DNA from: an uncultured Chloroflexia bacterium
Lineage (GTDB): Bacteria; Chloroflexota; Limnocylindria; Limnocylindrales; CSP1-4
Length of the DNA: 64,000 nt
Reading direction: 5' to 3'
Assembly (NCBI GenBank): GCA_963832105.1
Contig: CAWHSS010000003.1
Location: 472,131-536,130, forward strand
This document shows, piece after piece, positions 4,240 through 20,969 of this stretch. Each line of letters opens with the position of its first letter. Within the stretch, counting starts at the first letter, position 1. The notes below the pieces were generated by a model. That model saw only the letters and a program-made list of their open reading frames with translations, was not told the origin of the DNA and ran no database searches. Position numbers and translations under genes: made by a program.

Positions 4240-5415
4240 TCAGCCTCGAACCGCCGCCAGAATCGCCGCAATCTCGTTTGCCGACGGGAGCCGCGGGCTG
4301 TTGTTGATCGCGGCGTCGTCAAGCGCGTCGGCGACGATCGACGCCTCGAGCGCCTTGTCGATCCCGAGCTGCAGCAGCGTCCGTCGCTGGCCGAGCCGAT
4401 CGAGTAGCAATTCGATACCTGCAATGGCCGCCGTCGCTGCCTCGGACGGCTTGTCCCGCGCGCTCGCCACCGACATCGCCACCCCCACGAGGGCCAGCTC
4501 GCGCTCCCGGACGCTCGTGTACGTCGCGAGGACCTCGGGGAGGACCGTCGCGAGGGCCGTGCCATGCGGCAGCTTGCCGCGCGTCCCGAGGGCGTGTCCG
4601 ATCGCGTGGACCGCCCCGACGCCCGTGCCGCTCGCCTGGCCGAGGCCGGCGAGATGGGCGGCCACCAGCAATTGGCTCCGCGCCTCGAGGTTCGCGCCGT
4701 CGTCGAACGCGACGGGCAGCCATTCCGACACGGTCCGGATCACCTGCAGGGCGATGGCCTCGGCGAACGGGTTGGGGTTGCGCGACAGGAGGGACTCGAG
4801 CGAGTGCGTCAGCGCGTCGATGCCCGTCGCGGCGGTCGGCTCGGGCGGCAGGCCCAGCGTCAATTCCGGATCCAGGACGGAGGCGACGGGTAGGACGCTC
4901 GGATGGCCGACGTACGCCTTCCGACCTGCGGCCTCGTCGGTGATCACGCCGTAGGTGTTGGTTTCGGCGCCCGTCCCGGCGGTCGTCGGCACGGCGACGA
5001 GCGGCAAACCGTGGAGAAGCCGCGGGTCGTGGTAGCCGAGCGTCAGGACGTCGCCCTCGTTTCGGACGTGGAGCGACACGGCCTTGGCCGTGTCCATCGA
5101 CGAGCCGCCGCCGACGGGAACGACGACCGTGCCGTGGGTCCCGAACGCGGCGAGCGCCGTACTCCCCCGCACGACCGACTCGGTCCCTGGGTTCGCTCGA
5201 CCTCGGCGAAGACGCCCATCGCGATCCCGCCCGCTTCGAGGGACCGGCGCACGGCATCGATGACGCCGGCCGAGGACCACGCCGCGGTCGGTCACGACGA
5301 ACGCCCGACGCCCACCGGCCTCCCGGACGAGGTCCGGCAACTGGGACACGGCCCCGGCGCCGAACCGGATCCGGTCGCGCAGAATCAGGTCGAGGGTGCG
5401 GTCGGCCAGGTCCAT
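4240..5415 (-). CDS. Iron-containing (type III) alcohol dehydrogenase; GbsB-like role possible
   Basis: ORF 4240..5415 with Fe-ADH motifs (GGGSSMDTAK, HAIGHALG). Residues ~45-70 are off frame; the correct text VIDAVRRSLEAGGIAMGVFAEVE lies in ORF 5043..5252. Its ATG overlaps the soxD stop (TGATG). Confidence 0.85.
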   Translation of the reverse strand: MDLADRTLDLILRDRIRFGAGAVSQLPDLVREAGGRRAFVVTDRGVVLGRRHRCRAPVPRSGRDRDGRLRRGRANPGTESVVRGSTALAAFGTHGTVVVPVGGGSSMDTAKAVSLHVRNEGDVLTLGYHDPRLLHGLPLVAVPTTAGTGAETNTYGVITDEAAGRKAYVGHPSVLPVASVLDPELTLGLPPEPTAATGIDALTHSLESLLSRNPNPFAEAIALQVIRTVSEWLPVAFDDGANLEARSQLLVAAHLAGLGQASGTGVGAVHAIGHALGTRGKLPHGTALATVLPEVLATYTSVRERELALVGVAMSVASARDKPSEAATAAIAGIELLLDRLGQRRTLLQLGIDKALEASIVADALDDAAINNSPRLPSANEIAAILAAVRG

Positions 5416-5651
5416 CAGGCCACTACCGTATCGGTCGACGTGTCGCGGCGAATGGTCAGCCAGCGCCGGCAGCCGGCCGCGTGGAACCAGCGTTCGGTCG
5501 TCACGCCTTCGGGGTTCTCGAACATCCAGACCTCGTCGAGGTTGCGGGCGTCGTCGCCTTCGATCCAGTCGGGGACCGGGCGCCGCTCGCCGCCGAACGC
5601 GAACTCGTCGATCGGGTGTGGGCCGCAGCGGGGGCAGGTAAGCCAGAGCAT
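5415..5651 (-). CDS. soxD: Sarcosine oxidase delta subunit
   Basis: Last 78 codons of ORF 5415..6890: MLWLTCPRCGPHPIDEFAFGGERRPVPDW..., the SoxD zinc-ribbon pattern. Abuts soxB. Confidence 0.85.
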   Translation of the reverse strand: MLWLTCPRCGPHPIDEFAFGGERRPVPDWIEGDDARNLDEVWMFENPEGVTTERWFHAAGCRRWLTIRRDTSTDTVVA

Positions 5652-18710: not shown

Positions 18711-20166
18711 GTGACCGTCGTTCTCACCGGTCGGGATCTCGACCGACAGCAGCTCGTCCGCGTCGCGCGCGGCCGCGAGCCCGTCGAGCTCGGCGCGGAT
18801 GCCCGGGCGCGGATGATCGAATCGCGCCGCATCGTGAAGGCGGCGCTCGACCGAGGCGATGCGATCTACGGATCGAATACCGCCGTCGGCGTCCTCAAGC
18901 GCGTCGGCATCACGGCCGACGACGACGGACGGCTACGCCGGTTCGATGAACCGGCACCACATCGTCGGCCAGGGCCCGGACGCTGCCGAGGACGTCGTCC
19001 GCGCGACGATGCTCCGCCTCGCGAACCACTTCGCCGAGGGCTCGGCCGGTGTTCGGCCGGAGCTGGCGGACCGCGTGATTGCCGCGCTGAACGGCGGCGA
19101 GACACCGCGCCTCCGGACGATCGGCTCGATCGGCCAGGCCGATCTCGCACCGCTCGCAGACCTCGCCGCCGCCCTGTTCGACGGGCTGGCGCTCGAGGCC
19201 GGCGAGGGCACGGCGCTGCTCGACAACAACGCGTTCTCGACCGGCTGGGCGGCCCTCGCCGTCACCGACGCGATCGCGCTCCTCGACTCGATGGACGTGG
19301 CCGGCGCGCTGAGCCTCGAGGGCCTCGGGGCGAACCCGACGATGCTCCACGCCGCGATCGGCGAGGTTCGGCCGTATCCCGGGCTGCGGCGGACGCTCGA
19401 CCGGTTACGGAGAGCTGCTCAGCGGGAGCGCGATCTGGGATCCGGGAACGGCCCGCCACCTCCAGGATCCGCTGTCGTTCCGGAACCTGCCCCAGATCCA
19501 GGGCGCCTGCCGCGACGTCCTCGACCACGTGGAGGCGCAACTCGCGATCGAGCTCAATGCGTCCCAGGGCAACCCGATCGTCGTCGTCGCGGAGGAGCGG
19601 GTCATCTCCGTCGCGAACTTCGAGATCCTGCCCCTCGCGGCCGCCCTCGACTATCTCCGACTCATCCTCGCCACCGCCCTGACGAGCTCGTCCGAGCGGA
19701 CGGTCAAGTTGCTCGGCGCGCCCTGGACCGGGCTGCCGACGGGGCTGACGCCGCTGCCGGGAACGACCGAAGCGGGCTTGACCTACCTCAGCCTGGCCGC
19801 CCAGAGTCTTGCCGTGGAAGCCCGCCTCCTGGCCCAGCCTGTTTCGTTCGAGCTGACCTCGACCGCCCATGCCGAGGGGATCGAGGACCGGACGACGATG
19901 GCGCCGCTCGCCGCGCGACGTGTCGCGGAAATGGTCGGGCTCGGGGAGCGAATCGTCGCCATCGAGCTGGCCGTTGCCGCCCAGGCGACCGACCTGCGTG
20001 GCCTGCGACGGGGCAGCGGGACCGAGGCGGCGGTGGCGGTCGTGCGGCAGGTCGTCCCGTTCCTCGACACGGGCGACTCGGTCGCTGACGTGGAACCGCT
20101 GGTCGCGCGCGTCCGAGAGGGCGCCTTCGCCGGGCCGGGGCCGGGGCCGTGGGGCTCGCTCGATGA
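18711..20166 (+). pseudogene. Histidine/phenylalanine ammonia-lyase family protein lacking the Ala-Ser-Gly MIO triad, ~3 frameshifts
   Basis: Stitched from ORFs 18711.., 18859.. and 19529... It has GSIGQADLAPLADL where HAL has GSVGASGDLAPLAH. The likely true stop TGA (20164-20166) overlaps the iclR ATG. Confidence 0.75.
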
Positions 20167-20969
20167 GCCGGGCGTCGACGGCCCGGGACCGCCCGCCCGA
20201 GGAAGCCGGCGAGGACACGTCGTTCGCCCGCGGCCTCAGGATCCTGCTGACCGTCGCCGACCGCGGCGAGGTGCGGGCGGAGGAGCTGGCGGTCCTGCTC
20301 GACACGCCGACCTCCACCGTCTATCGCTACCTCCGAACGTTGACCGAGTTCGGATTCGTCGACCGGCGCGACGGCCGGTATCTCCTTGGACCGCGTCTCG
20401 TGATCGGCAGCGGCACGAACGTCACGAGCGAGCAGCTGATCAGGGTCGCCGACCCGGTGCTCCATTACCTCGTCGGCGAGACGGGCGAGACCGCGGTCGT
20501 CACGCGCCGGATCGGGCTGTCGGCCGTCTGCCTCCACCAGGTCGAAACGAGTCAGCCGCTTCGGGTGTCGCTCCAGCCCGGGTCGATGTCGCCGCTCCAC
20601 GCCGGGGCCGTCGGTCGGGTGCTCCTCGCTTATGCGCTGCCCGAGATCATCGACGAGGTGATCGCGGGCGGACTCGAGCGCGTCACGCCGAGCACGCCCG
20701 ACGAGGCGGTCCTGCGGGCGACCCTCGCCGAGATTCGCGAGACGGGGATCGCCAGCAGCGAGGGTGAGCTCATTTCCGGCTCTGTGGGAATCGCCGCTCC
20801 CATTTTCCGCGACGCCGGAATCGTCGGCGCCGTGGGCGTCATCGGCCCCAAGGGCCGCTGCGGGCTCGCCTGGCGCTCGCGGGTGATGCATCTGCTGCCC
20901 GAGGCGGCCCGGACGATCATGGCGAGCCTCGAAGATGAGGCACCACACCCAACTACACCTATCGCATAG
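20163..20969 (+). CDS. IclR family transcriptional regulator
   Basis: ATG 20163 in the frame of ORF 19869..20969: FARGLRILLTVADRGEVRAEELAVLLDTPTSTVYRYLRTL... followed by an IclR effector domain. Confidence 0.85.
   Translation: MSRASTARDRPPEEAGEDTSFARGLRILLTVADRGEVRAEELAVLLDTPTSTVYRYLRTLTEFGFVDRRDGRYLLGPRLVIGSGTNVTSEQLIRVADPVLHYLVGETGETAVVTRRIGLSAVCLHQVETSQPLRVSLQPGSMSPLHAGAVGRVLLAYALPEIIDEVIAGGLERVTPSTPDEAVLRATLAEIRETGIASSEGELISGSVGIAAPIFRDAGIVGAVGVIGPKGRCGLAWRSRVMHLLPEAARTIMASLEDEAPHPTTPIA

What the first reader, a model, noticed from the sequence alone, without database searches (positions are those of the whole stretch)
4240..20969. 16.7-kb divergent quaternary-amine catabolic locus combining enzyme types not normally seen together
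Minus strand, tightly packed or overlapping:
- enolase-superfamily enzyme (14740-13628)
- MttB-family methyltransferase (13598-12020)
- DMG/sarcosine-dehydrogenase-like flavoenzyme (11966-9493)
- soxA-soxG-soxB-soxD (9462-5415)
- Fe-ADH (5415-4240)

Plus strand, diverging from a 128-nt control region:
- OpuC-type betaine ABC importer (14869-18632)
- MIO-less HAL-family lyase (18711-20166)
- IclR regulator (20163-20969)

Separately, these parts are known from glycine betaine -> DMG -> sarcosine -> glycine catabolism, from proline/hydroxyproline-betaine catabolism (enolase-superfamily HpbD), and from trimethylamine-eliminating lyases. I am not aware of a described pathway that uses this combination in one regulon. 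The substrate could be glycine betaine or choline, but could equally be an amino-acid betaine such as proline betaine, hydroxyproline betaine or hercynine/ergothioneine.
Basis: partly seen in the sequence, partly recalled or inferred. Interest (0 to 1): 0.75.

Follow-up and report, generated by a model that had tools for sequence, protein, structure and literature searches.

The report
Conserved soil-Chloroflexota betaine breakdown gene island
This is a real gene island, conserved in soil Chloroflexota (class Limnocylindria), for importing and demethylating betaine-type compounds; its core is a recently described pathway, two extra enzymes (a cofactor-less trimethylamine-releasing lyase and an enolase-family enzyme) have unknown substrates, and the many frame breaks are sequence errors rather than gene decay.

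Summary
The "soxG" is assigned by position only. The importer's binding protein is OsmF/YehZ-like. The enolase-family protein is not HpbD-like.

The window comes from a Limnocylindria (Chloroflexota) genome. A related MAG (L005, 88.6% nt identity) carries the same 14 genes in the same order, with dN/dS of 0.04-0.25. The roughly 18 frame breaks are single-base insertions that also occur elsewhere in the window, so they are sequence errors, not decay.

The island is modular:
- MttB-DMGDH-SoxA/x/B/D is conserved in Chloroflexota and Actinomycetota.
- The enolase and Fe-ADH are found only in Chloroflexota.
- The ABC importer, the MIO-less lyase and IclR form an optional second arm. That arm also occurs without the first.

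MttB-family + DMGDH + sarcosine-oxidase clusters were described in 2025 for aerobic marine bacteria (the cobalamin-dependent MtgBCD system). MIO-less trimethylammonia-lyases are also known.

Best reading: betaine is imported, then demethylated stepwise to glycine through a corrinoid protein encoded elsewhere. A hercynine-type lyase is an add-on.

Verdict: a new variant of a known kind, of moderate interest.

The parts
4240..5415 (-). Iron-containing alcohol dehydrogenase, a candidate choline or amino-alcohol dehydrogenase. Two compensating frame breaks near 5268 and 5186.
   Evidence: NCBIfam: lactaldehyde reductase 238 bits and GbsB choline dehydrogenase 226 bits, both below the equivalog cut-offs. 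Present downstream of MttB in 26/27 Chloroflexota loci and 0/19 Actinomycetota loci.
5415..5654 (-). Sarcosine-oxidase delta-subunit family protein (SoxD).
   Evidence: TIGR01374 at 63 bits, cut-off 116.5. PF04267 in homologous loci. 93% identical to L005.
5651..6868 (-). Sarcosine-oxidase beta-subunit family flavoprotein (SoxB), intact.
   Evidence: TIGR01373 at 398 bits. PDB 1VRQ_B and 2GAG_B, heterotetrameric sarcosine oxidase beta, at 325 and 315 bits.
6868..7237 (-). 123-aa protein in the position of the gamma subunit. Family unassigned. One frame break near 6952.
   Evidence: No Pfam or NCBIfam hit. Conserved at this position in 24/27 Chloroflexota loci.
7242..9462 (-). Short (about 739 aa) sarcosine-oxidase alpha-like subunit with an N-terminal 2Fe-2S-type Cys motif and a folate-binding GcvT domain. 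Frame break near 7683.
   Evidence: Pfam Fer2_4, GCV_T and GCV_T_C, with weak SO_alpha_A3. TIGR01372 matches only the C-terminal half (282 bits, cut-off 1164).
9493..11966 (-). Dimethylglycine-dehydrogenase-like flavoenzyme (DAO + FAO_M + GCV_T). At least 5 frame breaks.
   Evidence: PDB 5L46 human DMGDH at 518 bits, end to end; Arthrobacter DMG oxidase at 297 bits. Adjacent to MttB in 27/27 Chloroflexota and 19/19 Actinomycetota loci. Frames.
12020..13598 (-). Non-pyrrolysine MttB-superfamily methyltransferase (MtgB-like). One frame break near 12896.
   Evidence: PF06253. PDB 4YYC at 374 bits, D. hafniense MtgB (2QNE/9YCE) at 340 bits, true MttB at 160 bits. The carboxylate ligands R312 and H348 of MtgB are kept; the aromatic pair Y97/F356 is replaced by A/G (one search read against PMC13080624).
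13628..14740 (-). Enolase-superfamily enzyme of the mandelate-racemase subgroup, substrate unknown. 3 frame breaks.
   Evidence: Pfam MR_MLE_N/C. Best PDB matches reach only about 100 bits: uncharacterised MR/MLE proteins and acid-sugar dehydratases. K149-x-R151, D180, E216/217, E243, D266 and H293 are invariant in 39 orthologues. Present upstream of MttB in 27/29 Chloroflexota loci.
14741..14868 (.). 128-nt divergent control region holding a conserved pair of reverse-complementary half sites. GTACCCCA lies within the 14823-14840 inverted repeat and GCGATACTG at 14775-14783.
   Evidence: Both motifs are present in all 13 orthologous intergenic regions. Perfect 7-nt inverted repeat GGTACGG-4-CCGTACC. 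The exact GCGATACTG occurs once in the window. No sigma-70 consensus match.
14869..16115 (+). ABC ATPase with a C-terminal CBS domain. Frame breaks near 15682 and 16049; the 3' end is approximate.
   Evidence: Pfam ABC_tran + CBS. 94% identical to L005. Frames.
16120..16788 (+). ABC permease 1.
   Evidence: Pfam BPD_transp_1.
16791..17564 (+). ABC permease 2.
   Evidence: Pfam BPD_transp_1.
17654..18632 (+). Lipoprotein substrate-binding protein of the OpuAC family, OsmF/YehZ-like. Frame break near 18611.
   Evidence: PF04069 at 140 bits. Best PDB match is OsmF 4WEP at 58 bits; EgtUC and OpuCC score about 35 bits. Lipobox LVSAC read directly from the sequence.
18711..20166 (+). MIO-less aromatic-lyase-family enzyme, a predicted trimethylammonia-lyase. 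Frame breaks near 18924 and 19408; the 3' end is uncertain.
   Evidence: PF00221. Best PDB match is T. denticola ergothionase 6S7J, E=1e-49, ahead of HAL. GS(I/V)G(Q/S)AD replaces the HAL motif GS(L/V)GASGD. Y53, H83, Q251, R257 and E391 are invariant in 121 homologues. Always directly downstream of the binding-protein gene.
20163..20969 (+). IclR-family transcriptional regulator.
   Evidence: NCBIfam BhcR 129 bits, PcaR/PcaU family 109 bits. PF09339 and PF01614 in homologues.

Best explanation
The locus is a modular betaine-utilisation island of soil Limnocylindria (Chloroflexota). It is built from two divergently transcribed arms that share a 128-nt control region.

**Plus arm**
- A QAT/OpuC-family ABC importer takes up one or more quaternary ammonium compounds. 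It has an ATPase with a CBS domain, two permeases, and an OsmF/YehZ-like lipoprotein binding protein.
- A cytoplasmic MIO-less lyase then removes trimethylamine from an imported alpha-trimethylammonio acid. The conserved residues point to a sulfur-free histidine betaine such as hercynine.
- An IclR regulator probably controls both arms through the conserved inverted half sites.

**Minus arm**
- An MtgB-like MttB-family enzyme takes one methyl group from a carboxylate betaine, most likely glycine betaine. It passes the methyl to a corrinoid protein encoded elsewhere in the genome, and from there it goes to tetrahydrofolate.
- The DMGDH-like flavoenzyme converts dimethylglycine to sarcosine.
- The SoxA/x/B/D complex converts sarcosine to glycine. 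Both of these enzymes hand the C1 unit to folate.
- The Fe-ADH feeds choline-type alcohols into the pathway. In relatives it works together with an aldehyde dehydrogenase that this window lacks.
- The enolase-superfamily enzyme has an intact active site but no assigned step.

**Shown versus inferred**
- Shown: family identities, synteny, purifying selection and motif conservation.
- Inferred: every substrate, the dependence on a corrinoid protein, and the regulatory link.

The frame breaks are sequence errors.
For: **Gene identities:**

**Synteny**
- All 14 genes lie in the same order in L005 (84-97% aa identity), L007 and L012. L085 and L089 show the same layout as far as their fetched flanks reach; L085 has no IclR beside the lyase and both also carry an aldehyde dehydrogenase.
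- MttB-DMGDH adjacency is 27/27 in Chloroflexota and 19/19 in Actinomycetota loci. The Sox genes follow in 24-26/27 and 12/19.

**Purifying selection:** dN/dS against L005 is 0.04-0.13 for 12 genes. Fe-ADH is 0.25, inflated by an out-of-frame stretch.

**Corrinoid dependence**
- The orthologous MttB-DMGDH pair in L082 is preceded by a B12-binding protein, DUF1638, PF13769, a Pterin_bind protein, RACo and a second MttB.
- Pieces of that kit lie at the flank edges of six more loci.
- This is the set that Mausz et al. 2025 (PMC12478193) showed to be needed for aerobic glycine betaine demethylation.

**MtgB-like enzyme:** it keeps the carboxylate ligands R312 and H348 of MtgB (PMC13080624).

**Lyase**
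- The closest solved structure is ergothionase.
- The MIO motif is absent family-wide.
- The Tyr base, the Gln/Arg/Asn carboxylate ligands and the His/Glu imidazole ligands are kept, and Leu replaces the thiolate-binding Lys384.
- This is the same residue logic that predicted histidine-betaine lyase activity in Shewanella (10.1101/2025.08.13.670108).
- The lyase gene always directly follows the binding-protein gene.

**Control region:** conserved half sites in all 13 control regions.
Against: - No corrinoid protein, pterin methyltransferase or RACo is encoded in the 64-kb window. Within 10 kb of MttB, the only trace in any Limnocylindria-type locus is a RACo fragment at the flank edge of L024.
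- The aromatic pair that binds the glycine betaine ammonium group in D. hafniense MtgB (Y97, F356) is not conserved here. The methyl donor could therefore be another carboxylate betaine.
- The binding protein keeps only one of the four aromatic-box residues of A. fulgidus ProX, in a low-identity pairwise alignment. Its nearest structural relatives (OsmF/YehZ) have no well-defined high-affinity ligand.
- The window encodes no urocanate-degrading or trimethylamine-oxidising genes.
- The enolase-superfamily enzyme has no role in the proposed pathway.
- The Fe-ADH and the aldehyde dehydrogenase of relatives score below every equivalog cut-off.
- The two arms occur independently in many genomes, so co-regulation is not proven.
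Confidence: 0.6

Rival explanations
1. The minus arm demethylates a chiral amino-acid betaine rather than glycine betaine. Candidates are hercynine, proline betaine and alanine betaine. The MtgB-like enzyme would remove the first methyl group, the DMGDH-like enzyme the second, and the Sox-like complex the third. The enolase-superfamily enzyme would racemise or epimerise the alpha-carbon so that both stereoisomers can be used. The lyase would offer an alternative trimethylamine-eliminating exit for the same imported substrate.
For: - The MtgB aromatic pair Y97/F356 that holds glycine betaine is replaced, while the carboxylate ligands are kept (PMC13080624).
- The enolase-superfamily gene is translationally coupled to, or adjacent to, the MttB gene and is present in 27/29 Chloroflexota loci.
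- Its catalytic residues are invariant.
- The importer, lyase and demethylation arm share one control region in the window, L005, L007, L012, L085 and L089.
Against: - The DMGDH-like protein aligns end to end with genuine mammalian DMGDH, and SoxB with genuine sarcosine oxidase beta.
- Actinomycetota carry the orthologous MttB-DMGDH-Sox set without the enolase, lyase or importer.
- The enolase belongs to the mandelate-racemase subgroup, which is dominated by acid-sugar dehydratases, and it is not close to HpbD.
- In most relatives it pairs with an aldehyde dehydrogenase rather than directly with MttB.
Confidence: 0.2
2. The two arms are functionally independent modules that merely sit side by side in a variable genomic island. 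One is an importer + lyase unit for an aromatic amino-acid betaine. The other is a glycine betaine/choline demethylation operon. They do not form a single regulon.
For: - L087/L088 carry ABC + lyase at the same syntenic site with no MttB arm.
- 20 of 29 Chloroflexota species representatives have the MttB arm without this importer within the roughly 10 kb of upstream flank that was scanned, and 25 of 29 have it without the lyase.
- L002 has a peptide-type ABC system in the divergent position instead.
- L085 has the importer + lyase arm with no adjacent IclR.
Against: - The same half-site motif is conserved in the shared intergenic region of all 13 loci that have both arms.
- IclR accompanies the arm in 16/29 loci, more often than the importer does. 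This suggests that IclR controls the catabolic arm.
- This reading is compatible with most of the best explanation and differs only on regulation.
Confidence: 0.3
3. The locus is a decaying pseudogene cluster. The many indels are real mutations and the pathway no longer works in this organism.
For: About 18 frame breaks in 16.7 kb, affecting 10 of 14 genes.
Against: - dN/dS against L005 is 0.04-0.13 across the genes.
- There are no in-frame stops apart from those caused by the shifts, and no large deletions.
- The breaks are almost all single extra bases.
- Events with the same signature occur outside the locus: in a fumarase-family gene, a glutamine-synthetase-like gene, a sensor-kinase region and a small flanking gene.
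- L005, another MAG, also has one such break.
Confidence: 0.03

Closest known systems
Aerobic cobalamin-dependent glycine betaine demethylation, MtgBCD, with co-located dimethylglycine and sarcosine demethylation genes (Ruegeria pomeroyi and marine Alpha-, Gamma- and Deltaproteobacteria; Mausz et al. 2025, PMC12478193)
   Same: - A non-pyrrolysine PF06253 methyltransferase sits next to the DMGDH-type and sarcosine-oxidase-type genes.
- Orthologous Actinomycetota loci carry the B12-binding protein, DUF1638, a pterin-binding methyltransferase and a corrinoid activase.
- The organisms are aerobic heterotrophs.
   Different: - The phylum (Chloroflexota) and the habitat (soil) differ.
- No corrinoid, pterin or activase genes are in the window or the close relatives.
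- Extra genes are present: an enolase-superfamily enzyme, an Fe-ADH, and an OsmF/YehZ-type ABC importer in place of a BCCT carrier.
- A MIO-less lyase is also attached.
- The SoxA-like subunit is about 220 aa shorter than canonical SoxA, and the fourth subunit is unrecognisable.
D. hafniense MtgB, glycine betaine:corrinoid methyltransferase (PDB 2QNE/9YCE; PMC13080624)
   Same: - TIM-barrel MttB fold, 340-bit full-length match.
- R312 and H348, the carboxylate ligands, are conserved.
   Different: - Y97 and F356, the cation-pi pair, are Ala and Gly here.
- A Trp in the motif H-x-A-G-W-(M/L)-E-G-G is shared instead with the uncharacterised protein 4YYC, which is the better match at 374 bits.
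MIO-less trimethylammonia-lyases: ergothionase (T. denticola, PDB 6S7J), histidine betaine lyase Swoo_3913 and N-pi-methylhistidine betaine lyase SO_3299 (bioRxiv 10.1101/2025.08.13.670108; 10.64898/2026.04.22.720169)
   Same: - PF00221 fold without Ala-Ser-Gly.
- The Tyr base, the Gln/Arg/Asn carboxylate ligands and the His/Glu imidazole ligands are present.
- The ergothionase Lys384 is replaced by a neutral residue, as in the two sulfur-free histidine-betaine lyases.
   Different: - About 30% identity.
- Cytoplasmic, with no signal peptide, whereas the Shewanella enzymes are periplasmic.
- Co-transcribed with an ABC importer and a regulator, instead of a flavocytochrome reductase or the ergothioneine catabolic genes.
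- Leu at the Lys384 position, where the Shewanella enzymes have Asn or Gln.
- A His-His motif where HAL and ergothionase have Ser-His.
HpbD, 4-hydroxyproline betaine 2-epimerase (enolase superfamily; Zhao et al. 2013, recalled from memory)
   Same: An enolase-superfamily enzyme encoded in a betaine-related gene neighbourhood with an ABC betaine importer.
   Different: - The His-Asp dyad and K-x-R motif of the mandelate-racemase subgroup are present, not the Lys/Lys pair.
- No HpbD structure is among the best 60 PDB matches.
- The partner demethylase is corrinoid-type, not Rieske-type.
E. coli YehZYXW (OsmF) and OpuC/OpuB/EgtUV importers of the QAT family
   Same: An ATPase with CBS domains, two separate permeases and an OpuAC-fold binding protein. 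The best structural relative is OsmF.
   Different: - Only about 25% identity.
- Three of the four classical aromatic-box positions are non-aromatic in the pairwise alignment.
- Four extra cysteines are present.
- The ligand is unknown.

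Membership tests
MttB superfamily, non-pyrrolysine MtgB-type betaine:corrinoid methyltransferase | PF06253 TIM-barrel domain over the full length | tested here: met
   TIGR02369 at 325 bits. PF06253 in all homologues. PDB 4YYC, 2QNE and 9YCE match at 340-374 bits.
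MttB superfamily, non-pyrrolysine MtgB-type betaine:corrinoid methyltransferase | No in-frame amber (pyrrolysine) codon | tested here: met
   The two frame segments 13598-12896 and 12896-12020 contain no stop codon. Intact homologues of 483-541 aa are called without a stop.
MttB superfamily, non-pyrrolysine MtgB-type betaine:corrinoid methyltransferase | Carboxylate ligands R312 and H348 of D. hafniense MtgB | tested here: met
   Both align to R and H in the window protein (alignment; residue roles from PMC13080624).
MttB superfamily, non-pyrrolysine MtgB-type betaine:corrinoid methyltransferase | Cation-pi pair Y97/F356 that holds glycine betaine | tested here: not met
   They align to Ala and Gly. 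PMC13080624 notes that this pair is also absent from MtcB, MtpB, MthB and MtyB, which use other substrates.
MttB superfamily, non-pyrrolysine MtgB-type betaine:corrinoid methyltransferase | Cognate corrinoid protein, methyl-corrinoid:THF methyltransferase and reductive activase | tested here: inconclusive
   Absent from the window; among Limnocylindria-type loci only a RACo fragment at the flank edge of L024 was seen. Present next to the orthologue in L082, and in part in six other loci. The rest of the genome could not be read.
Dimethylglycine dehydrogenase | DAO + FAO_M + GCV_T + GCV_T_C architecture and end-to-end similarity to characterised DMGDH | tested here: met
   Pfam architecture in L001, L002 and L004. 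Human and rat DMGDH match at 510-518 bits over residues 2-817.
Heterotetrameric sarcosine oxidase (SoxBDAG) | Beta subunit | tested here: met
   1VRQ_B and 2GAG_B at 315-325 bits. TIGR01373 at 398 bits, below the cut-off of 529.
Heterotetrameric sarcosine oxidase (SoxBDAG) | Delta subunit | tested here: met
   TIGR01374 at 63 bits, below the cut-off of 116.5. PF04267 in homologues.
Heterotetrameric sarcosine oxidase (SoxBDAG) | Full-length alpha subunit (about 960-1000 aa) | tested here: inconclusive
   739 aa. Only model positions 524-995 of TIGR01372 are matched. The N-terminus has Fer2_4 and only a faint Pyr_redox_2 match.
Heterotetrameric sarcosine oxidase (SoxBDAG) | Gamma subunit (SoxG, PF04268) | tested here: not met
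   The 123-aa protein at that position has no Pfam or NCBIfam hit.
Trimethylammonia-lyase (MIO-less HAL family) | PF00221 fold lacking Ala-Ser-Gly | tested here: met
   PF00221 at 341 bits. GSIGQADLAPL in the window, and GS(I/V)G(Q/S)AD in 121 of 121 homologues.
Trimethylammonia-lyase (MIO-less HAL family) | Catalytic Tyr base, Gln/Arg carboxylate ligands and His/Glu imidazole ligands | tested here: met
   Y53, H83, Q251, R257 and E391 are invariant. Equivalences come from the alignments, and residue roles from 10.1101/2025.08.13.670108.
Ergothionase specifically | Lys384 (T. denticola numbering) that binds the thiolate | tested here: not met
   It aligns to Leu361, which is L in 108 and I in 13 of 121 homologues. 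Position assigned from a pairwise alignment at about 30% identity, in which the Lys falls at chain position 383 (one-residue numbering offset assumed).
HpbD-type betaine epimerase | Close sequence relationship to HpbD and a Lys/Lys acid-base pair | tested here: not met
   HpbD entries are not among the best 60 PDB matches. H293-D266 dyad and K149-x-R151 motif. The Lys/Lys criterion is recalled from memory, not checked against a paper.
QAT/OpuC-type betaine ABC importer | ATPase with CBS domain, two permeases and an OpuAC-fold binding protein | tested here: met
   Pfam.
QAT/OpuC-type betaine ABC importer | Aromatic cage for the quaternary ammonium group | tested here: inconclusive
   Only Y63 of A. 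fulgidus ProX Y63/Y111/Y190/Y214 is retained, in a 46-bit pairwise alignment. The ProX residue list is recalled from memory.
GbsB-type choline dehydrogenase | Score above the NCBIfam equivalog cut-off | tested here: not met
   226 bits against a cut-off of 550. Lactaldehyde reductase scores slightly higher.
IclR-family regulator | N-terminal winged HTH plus an IclR effector domain | tested here: met
   Full-length NCBIfam matches to BhcR, PcaR and KdgR. PF09339 and PF01614 in homologues.

The most novel reading that the evidence does not exclude
The importer + lyase pair defines a new aerobic, cytoplasmic route for assimilating fungal or actinobacterial histidine betaines (hercynine-type compounds) in soil Chloroflexota. 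Its OsmF/YehZ-like binding protein would point to the long-unclear natural ligand class of the YehZYXW/OsmF branch of betaine transporters. In the same island, the conserved mandelate-racemase-type enolase enzyme would catalyse a previously undescribed reaction on a betaine or its demethylation product. The MtgB-type enzyme, which has a rebuilt ammonium pocket, would use a methyl donor other than glycine betaine.
Probability: 0.2. Interest if true: 0.65.

Novelty: new variant of a known kind. Interest (0 to 1): 0.42.

Why it matters
Limnocylindria are abundant, uncultured soil bacteria.

- **Wider reach of a new pathway.** A conserved island linking betaine import to MtgB-type demethylation would extend the cobalamin-dependent glycine betaine pathway, described in 2025, from marine Proteobacteria to soil Chloroflexota and Actinomycetota. 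That bears on soil C1, nitrogen and cobalamin budgets.
- **Trimethylamine in oxic soil.** The attached MIO-less lyase would be a soil source of trimethylamine from amino-acid betaines in oxic conditions.
- **Three tractable targets.** The lyase, the binding protein and the enolase-family enzyme each have unknown specificity, and conserved gene context narrows the candidate substrates.
- **A practical warning.** The frame breaks in this window are an assembly-quality problem and should not be read as biology.

Tried and rejected
- **Exact look-up of the intact SoxB protein** in the assembly collection found nothing. The window's own contig could not be retrieved.
- **Decay hypothesis:** rejected on dN/dS and on window-wide frame breaks.
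- **HpbD-like epimerase:** rejected on subgroup signature and PDB ranking.
- **Ergothionase:** rejected because the thiolate-binding Lys is missing.
- **MttB enzyme acting on the trimethylamine released by the lyase:** considered and set aside, for three reasons.
  - The carboxylate ligands R312 and H348 are conserved.
  - The MttB arm occurs far more often without the lyase.
  - The orthologues sit next to genuine DMGDH.
- **Corrinoid protein in the window:** searched with the DxHxxG...SxL...GG motif and with the L082 kit proteins. Nothing was found.
- **Aldehyde dehydrogenase of the relatives:** no homologue in the window.
- **Sigma-70 promoter and terminator scan** of the control region: no match.
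- **Third protein search (enolase):** it returned only relatives at 79% identity or more, with automatic names, so it gave no functional lead.
- **Literature searches:**
  - For an enolase + MttB association and for Limnocylindria betaine metabolism, no description of this island was found.
  - For ergothioneine catabolism and the EgtU transporter, nothing was found that bears on the lyase or the binding protein.
- **Structure prediction:** not run. Single-sequence models of frame-corrected proteins would not have settled any substrate.

Full report
**Observation**

The window has 70% G+C, and a third-position G+C plot shows the coding frame directly. On the minus strand from 14740 down to 4240, and on the plus strand from 14869 to 20969, the frame jumps repeatedly inside what are clearly single genes.

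I rebuilt each protein with a frame-tracking dynamic programme. I checked the joins against intact orthologues.

- Fe-ADH
- SoxD
- SoxB
- a short SoxA-like protein (Fer2_4 + GCV_T)
- a DMGDH-like protein that aligns end to end with human DMGDH (518 bits)
- an MttB-family protein
- an MR/MLE enolase-superfamily protein
- an ABC ATPase with a CBS domain
- two permeases
- an OpuAC-fold lipoprotein
- a PF00221 lyase without Ala-Ser-Gly
- an IclR regulator

Three corrections apply:
- The 123-aa protein at the "soxG" position matches no family.
- The binding protein is closest to OsmF/YehZ, not OpuCC.
- The enolase-family protein is not HpbD-like.

Gene junctions are tight or overlapping, and the intergenic region is 128 nt.

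**Origin and the frame breaks**

Homologues of the MttB protein at more than 80% identity are abundant in soil metagenomes. A scan of species-representative genomes returned 80 loci, mostly MAGs named Limnocylindria/Chloroflexota, followed by Acidimicrobiia/Actinomycetes.

The nearest locus is L005. It aligns to window 2767-23632 at 88.6% nt identity, with 62 gaps.
- About 30 of those gaps are single extra bases in the window that lie inside genes.
- L005's own genes are intact except for one break in DMGDH.

Codon-level comparison gives dN/dS of 0.04-0.13 for 12 genes. Fe-ADH is 0.25, inflated by an out-of-frame stretch.

Events with the same signature occur outside the locus:
- a small flanking gene near 3880;
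- a sensor-kinase region at 36.7-39.9 kb;
- a fumarase-family gene, whose Pfam match stops at profile position 264/312;
- a glutamine-synthetase-like gene.

The breaks are therefore errors of the sequence, not decay of the locus.

**Conservation**

I ran tblastn with the 14 rebuilt proteins against all fetched loci.

| Gene(s), relative to MttB | Chloroflexota loci | Actinomycetota loci |
|---|---|---|
| DMGDH, downstream | 27/27 | 19/19 |
| SoxA-like and the small protein | 24/27 | 12/19 and 10/19 |
| SoxB, SoxD | 26/27 | 12/19 |
| Fe-ADH | 26/27 | 0/19 |
| Enolase-family gene, upstream | 27/29 | 0/20 |
| ABC importer | 9/29 | 0/20 |
| IclR | 16/29 | 0/20 |
| Lyase | 4/29 | 0/20 |

- L005, L007 and L012 carry all 14 genes.
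- L085 and L089, found through the lyase, show the same layout as far as their fetched flanks reach. L085 has no IclR beside the lyase, and both also carry an aldehyde dehydrogenase.
- Most relatives have a PuuC/BADH-like aldehyde dehydrogenase after the enolase gene. The window has none.
- In L087/L088 the importer and lyase sit at the same syntenic site with no MttB arm at all. That site lies between DNA ligase-GNAT-MerR-luciferase-like genes on one side and LPG-synthase-glycosyltransferase-molybdenum-oxidoreductase genes on the other.

The island is therefore modular: a widely conserved demethylation core, Chloroflexota-specific additions, and an optional importer + lyase arm.

**The demethylation arm**

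The MttB-family protein is much closer to the uncharacterised 4YYC protein and to D. hafniense MtgB than to true trimethylamine MttB.

I read that alignment against the MtgB active-site study (PMC13080624). The carboxylate ligands R312 and H348 are kept. The cation-pi pair Y97/F356 is replaced by Ala/Gly. The methyl donor is therefore a carboxylate betaine, but not necessarily glycine betaine.

The window encodes no corrinoid protein. In Ilumatobacteraceae locus L082, however, the orthologous MttB-DMGDH pair is preceded by a B12-binding protein, DUF1638, PF13769, a pterin-binding methyltransferase, a RACo activase and a second MttB. Parts of that kit lie at the flank edges of six more loci.

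This is the component set that Mausz et al. (PMC12478193) showed to be required for aerobic glycine betaine demethylation in Ruegeria. They also reported it co-located with dimethylglycine and sarcosine demethylation genes in marine Proteobacteria. The core combination is therefore already described. The best inference is glycine betaine -> dimethylglycine -> sarcosine -> glycine, with the corrinoid partners encoded elsewhere in the genome.

The Fe-ADH plausibly supplies the betaine from choline, together with the aldehyde dehydrogenase in relatives. Neither protein reaches an equivalog cut-off.

**The lyase**

- Its best solved relative is T. denticola ergothionase, ahead of histidine ammonia-lyase.
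- In 121 homologues, GS(I/V)G(Q/S)AD replaces the HAL motif GS(L/V)GASGD. The Tyr base, the Gln/Arg carboxylate ligands and the His/Glu imidazole ligands are invariant. The MIO-less state is therefore a selected family trait.
- The ergothionase thiolate-binding Lys384 aligns to Leu.
- Two recent preprints used exactly this residue pattern to predict, and then demonstrate, histidine-betaine and N-pi-methylhistidine-betaine trimethylammonia-lyases in Shewanella.
- Unlike those periplasmic enzymes, this protein has no signal peptide. It always sits directly after the importer's binding-protein gene.
- I infer a cytoplasmic lyase acting on an imported, sulfur-free histidine-type betaine. This is not shown.
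- The window encodes no genes for urocanate or trimethylamine metabolism.

**The enolase-family enzyme and the binding protein**

The enolase-family protein has intact metal ligands, a His-Asp dyad and a K-x-R motif in 39 orthologues. That places it in the mandelate-racemase subgroup.
- Its best PDB matches reach only about 100 bits. They are uncharacterised proteins and acid-sugar dehydratases or cycloisomerases.
- Source annotations are automatic.
- No step of the proposed pathway needs it, so its role is unexplained.

In a low-identity pairwise alignment, the binding protein retains one of the four aromatic-box residues of A. fulgidus ProX. Its ligand cannot be named.

**Control region**

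All 13 loci with both arms share GTACC(G/C)CA and GCGATACTG in the divergent intergenic region.
- The two motifs are reverse complements of each other.
- Their spacing varies (16-19 nt or about 40 nt), which fits operator half sites better than promoter hexamers.
- The window adds a perfect 7-nt inverted repeat.
- The exact 9-mer occurs only once in the window.

That IclR binds these sites is an inference.

**Verdict**

- It is a functional, conserved betaine island.
- Its core is a new lineage-specific variant of a pathway published in 2025.
- The lyase belongs to a recently recognised enzyme class.
- The set is modular rather than one fixed regulon.

What remains new:
- the Chloroflexota context;
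- the importer + lyase operon;
- the rebuilt MtgB ammonium pocket;
- the orphan enolase-family enzyme.

Interest is moderate.

Noticed in passing
window 3880; 36693-39882; 53799; 61471-62289: Single-base insertions that break reading frames also occur outside the locus. They hit a small flanking gene, a sensor-kinase/response-regulator region, a fumarase-family (Lyase_1) gene and a glutamine-synthetase-like gene. This is the signature of an error-prone assembly.
   Followed up: partly
window 14775-14783 and 14823-14840; intergenic regions of L004, L005, L007, L008, L012, L016, L017, L018, L021, L026, L085 and L089: Conserved reverse-complementary half sites, CAGTAcCGC and GCGaTACTG, with variable spacing in every enolase/ABC divergent region. 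The window also has a perfect inverted repeat GGTACGG-4-CCGTACC. This is a candidate operator.
   Followed up: partly
L082:1414-7638: A complete corrinoid methyltransferase kit lies upstream of the orthologous MttB-DMGDH pair in an Ilumatobacteraceae MAG: B12-binding protein, DUF1638, PF13769, Pterin_bind, RACo and a second MttB paralogue. Fragments of the kit are at the flank edges of L024, L049, L057, L058, L063 and L069.
   Followed up: yes
L087:6197-11434 and L088: The ABC importer plus MIO-less lyase are present at the same syntenic site with no MttB/DMGDH/Sox arm. A 315-aa AlkA-like gene sits in the divergent position.
   Followed up: partly
L004:7764-9965; L002:7510-9667: In several relatives a 134-136-aa protein of no known family and a UbiB/ABC1-type kinase are inserted between the aldehyde dehydrogenase and MttB genes. 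Their relevance to the pathway is unknown.
   Followed up: no
window 7242-9462: The SoxA-like subunit has an N-terminal C-x4-C-x2-C-x11-C motif (Fer2_4) and lacks most of the nucleotide-binding domain of canonical SoxA. It may carry a real 2Fe-2S cluster.
   Followed up: no
window 17654-18632: The binding protein has four cysteines in two pairs (ADCDTNPLC and GACDV...ELCST) that are not seen in the aligned OsmF or ProX sequences. One of them replaces an aromatic-box tyrosine.
   Followed up: no
L005:13799-13840: The closest relative, also a MAG, has its own frame break near the 3' end of DMGDH.
   Followed up: partly
window 30912-36639: Thiolase, 3-hydroxyacyl-CoA dehydrogenase and TetR genes. 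By eye, phenylacetyl-CoA-oxygenase-like genes lie between them. This region is unrelated to the finding.
   Followed up: no
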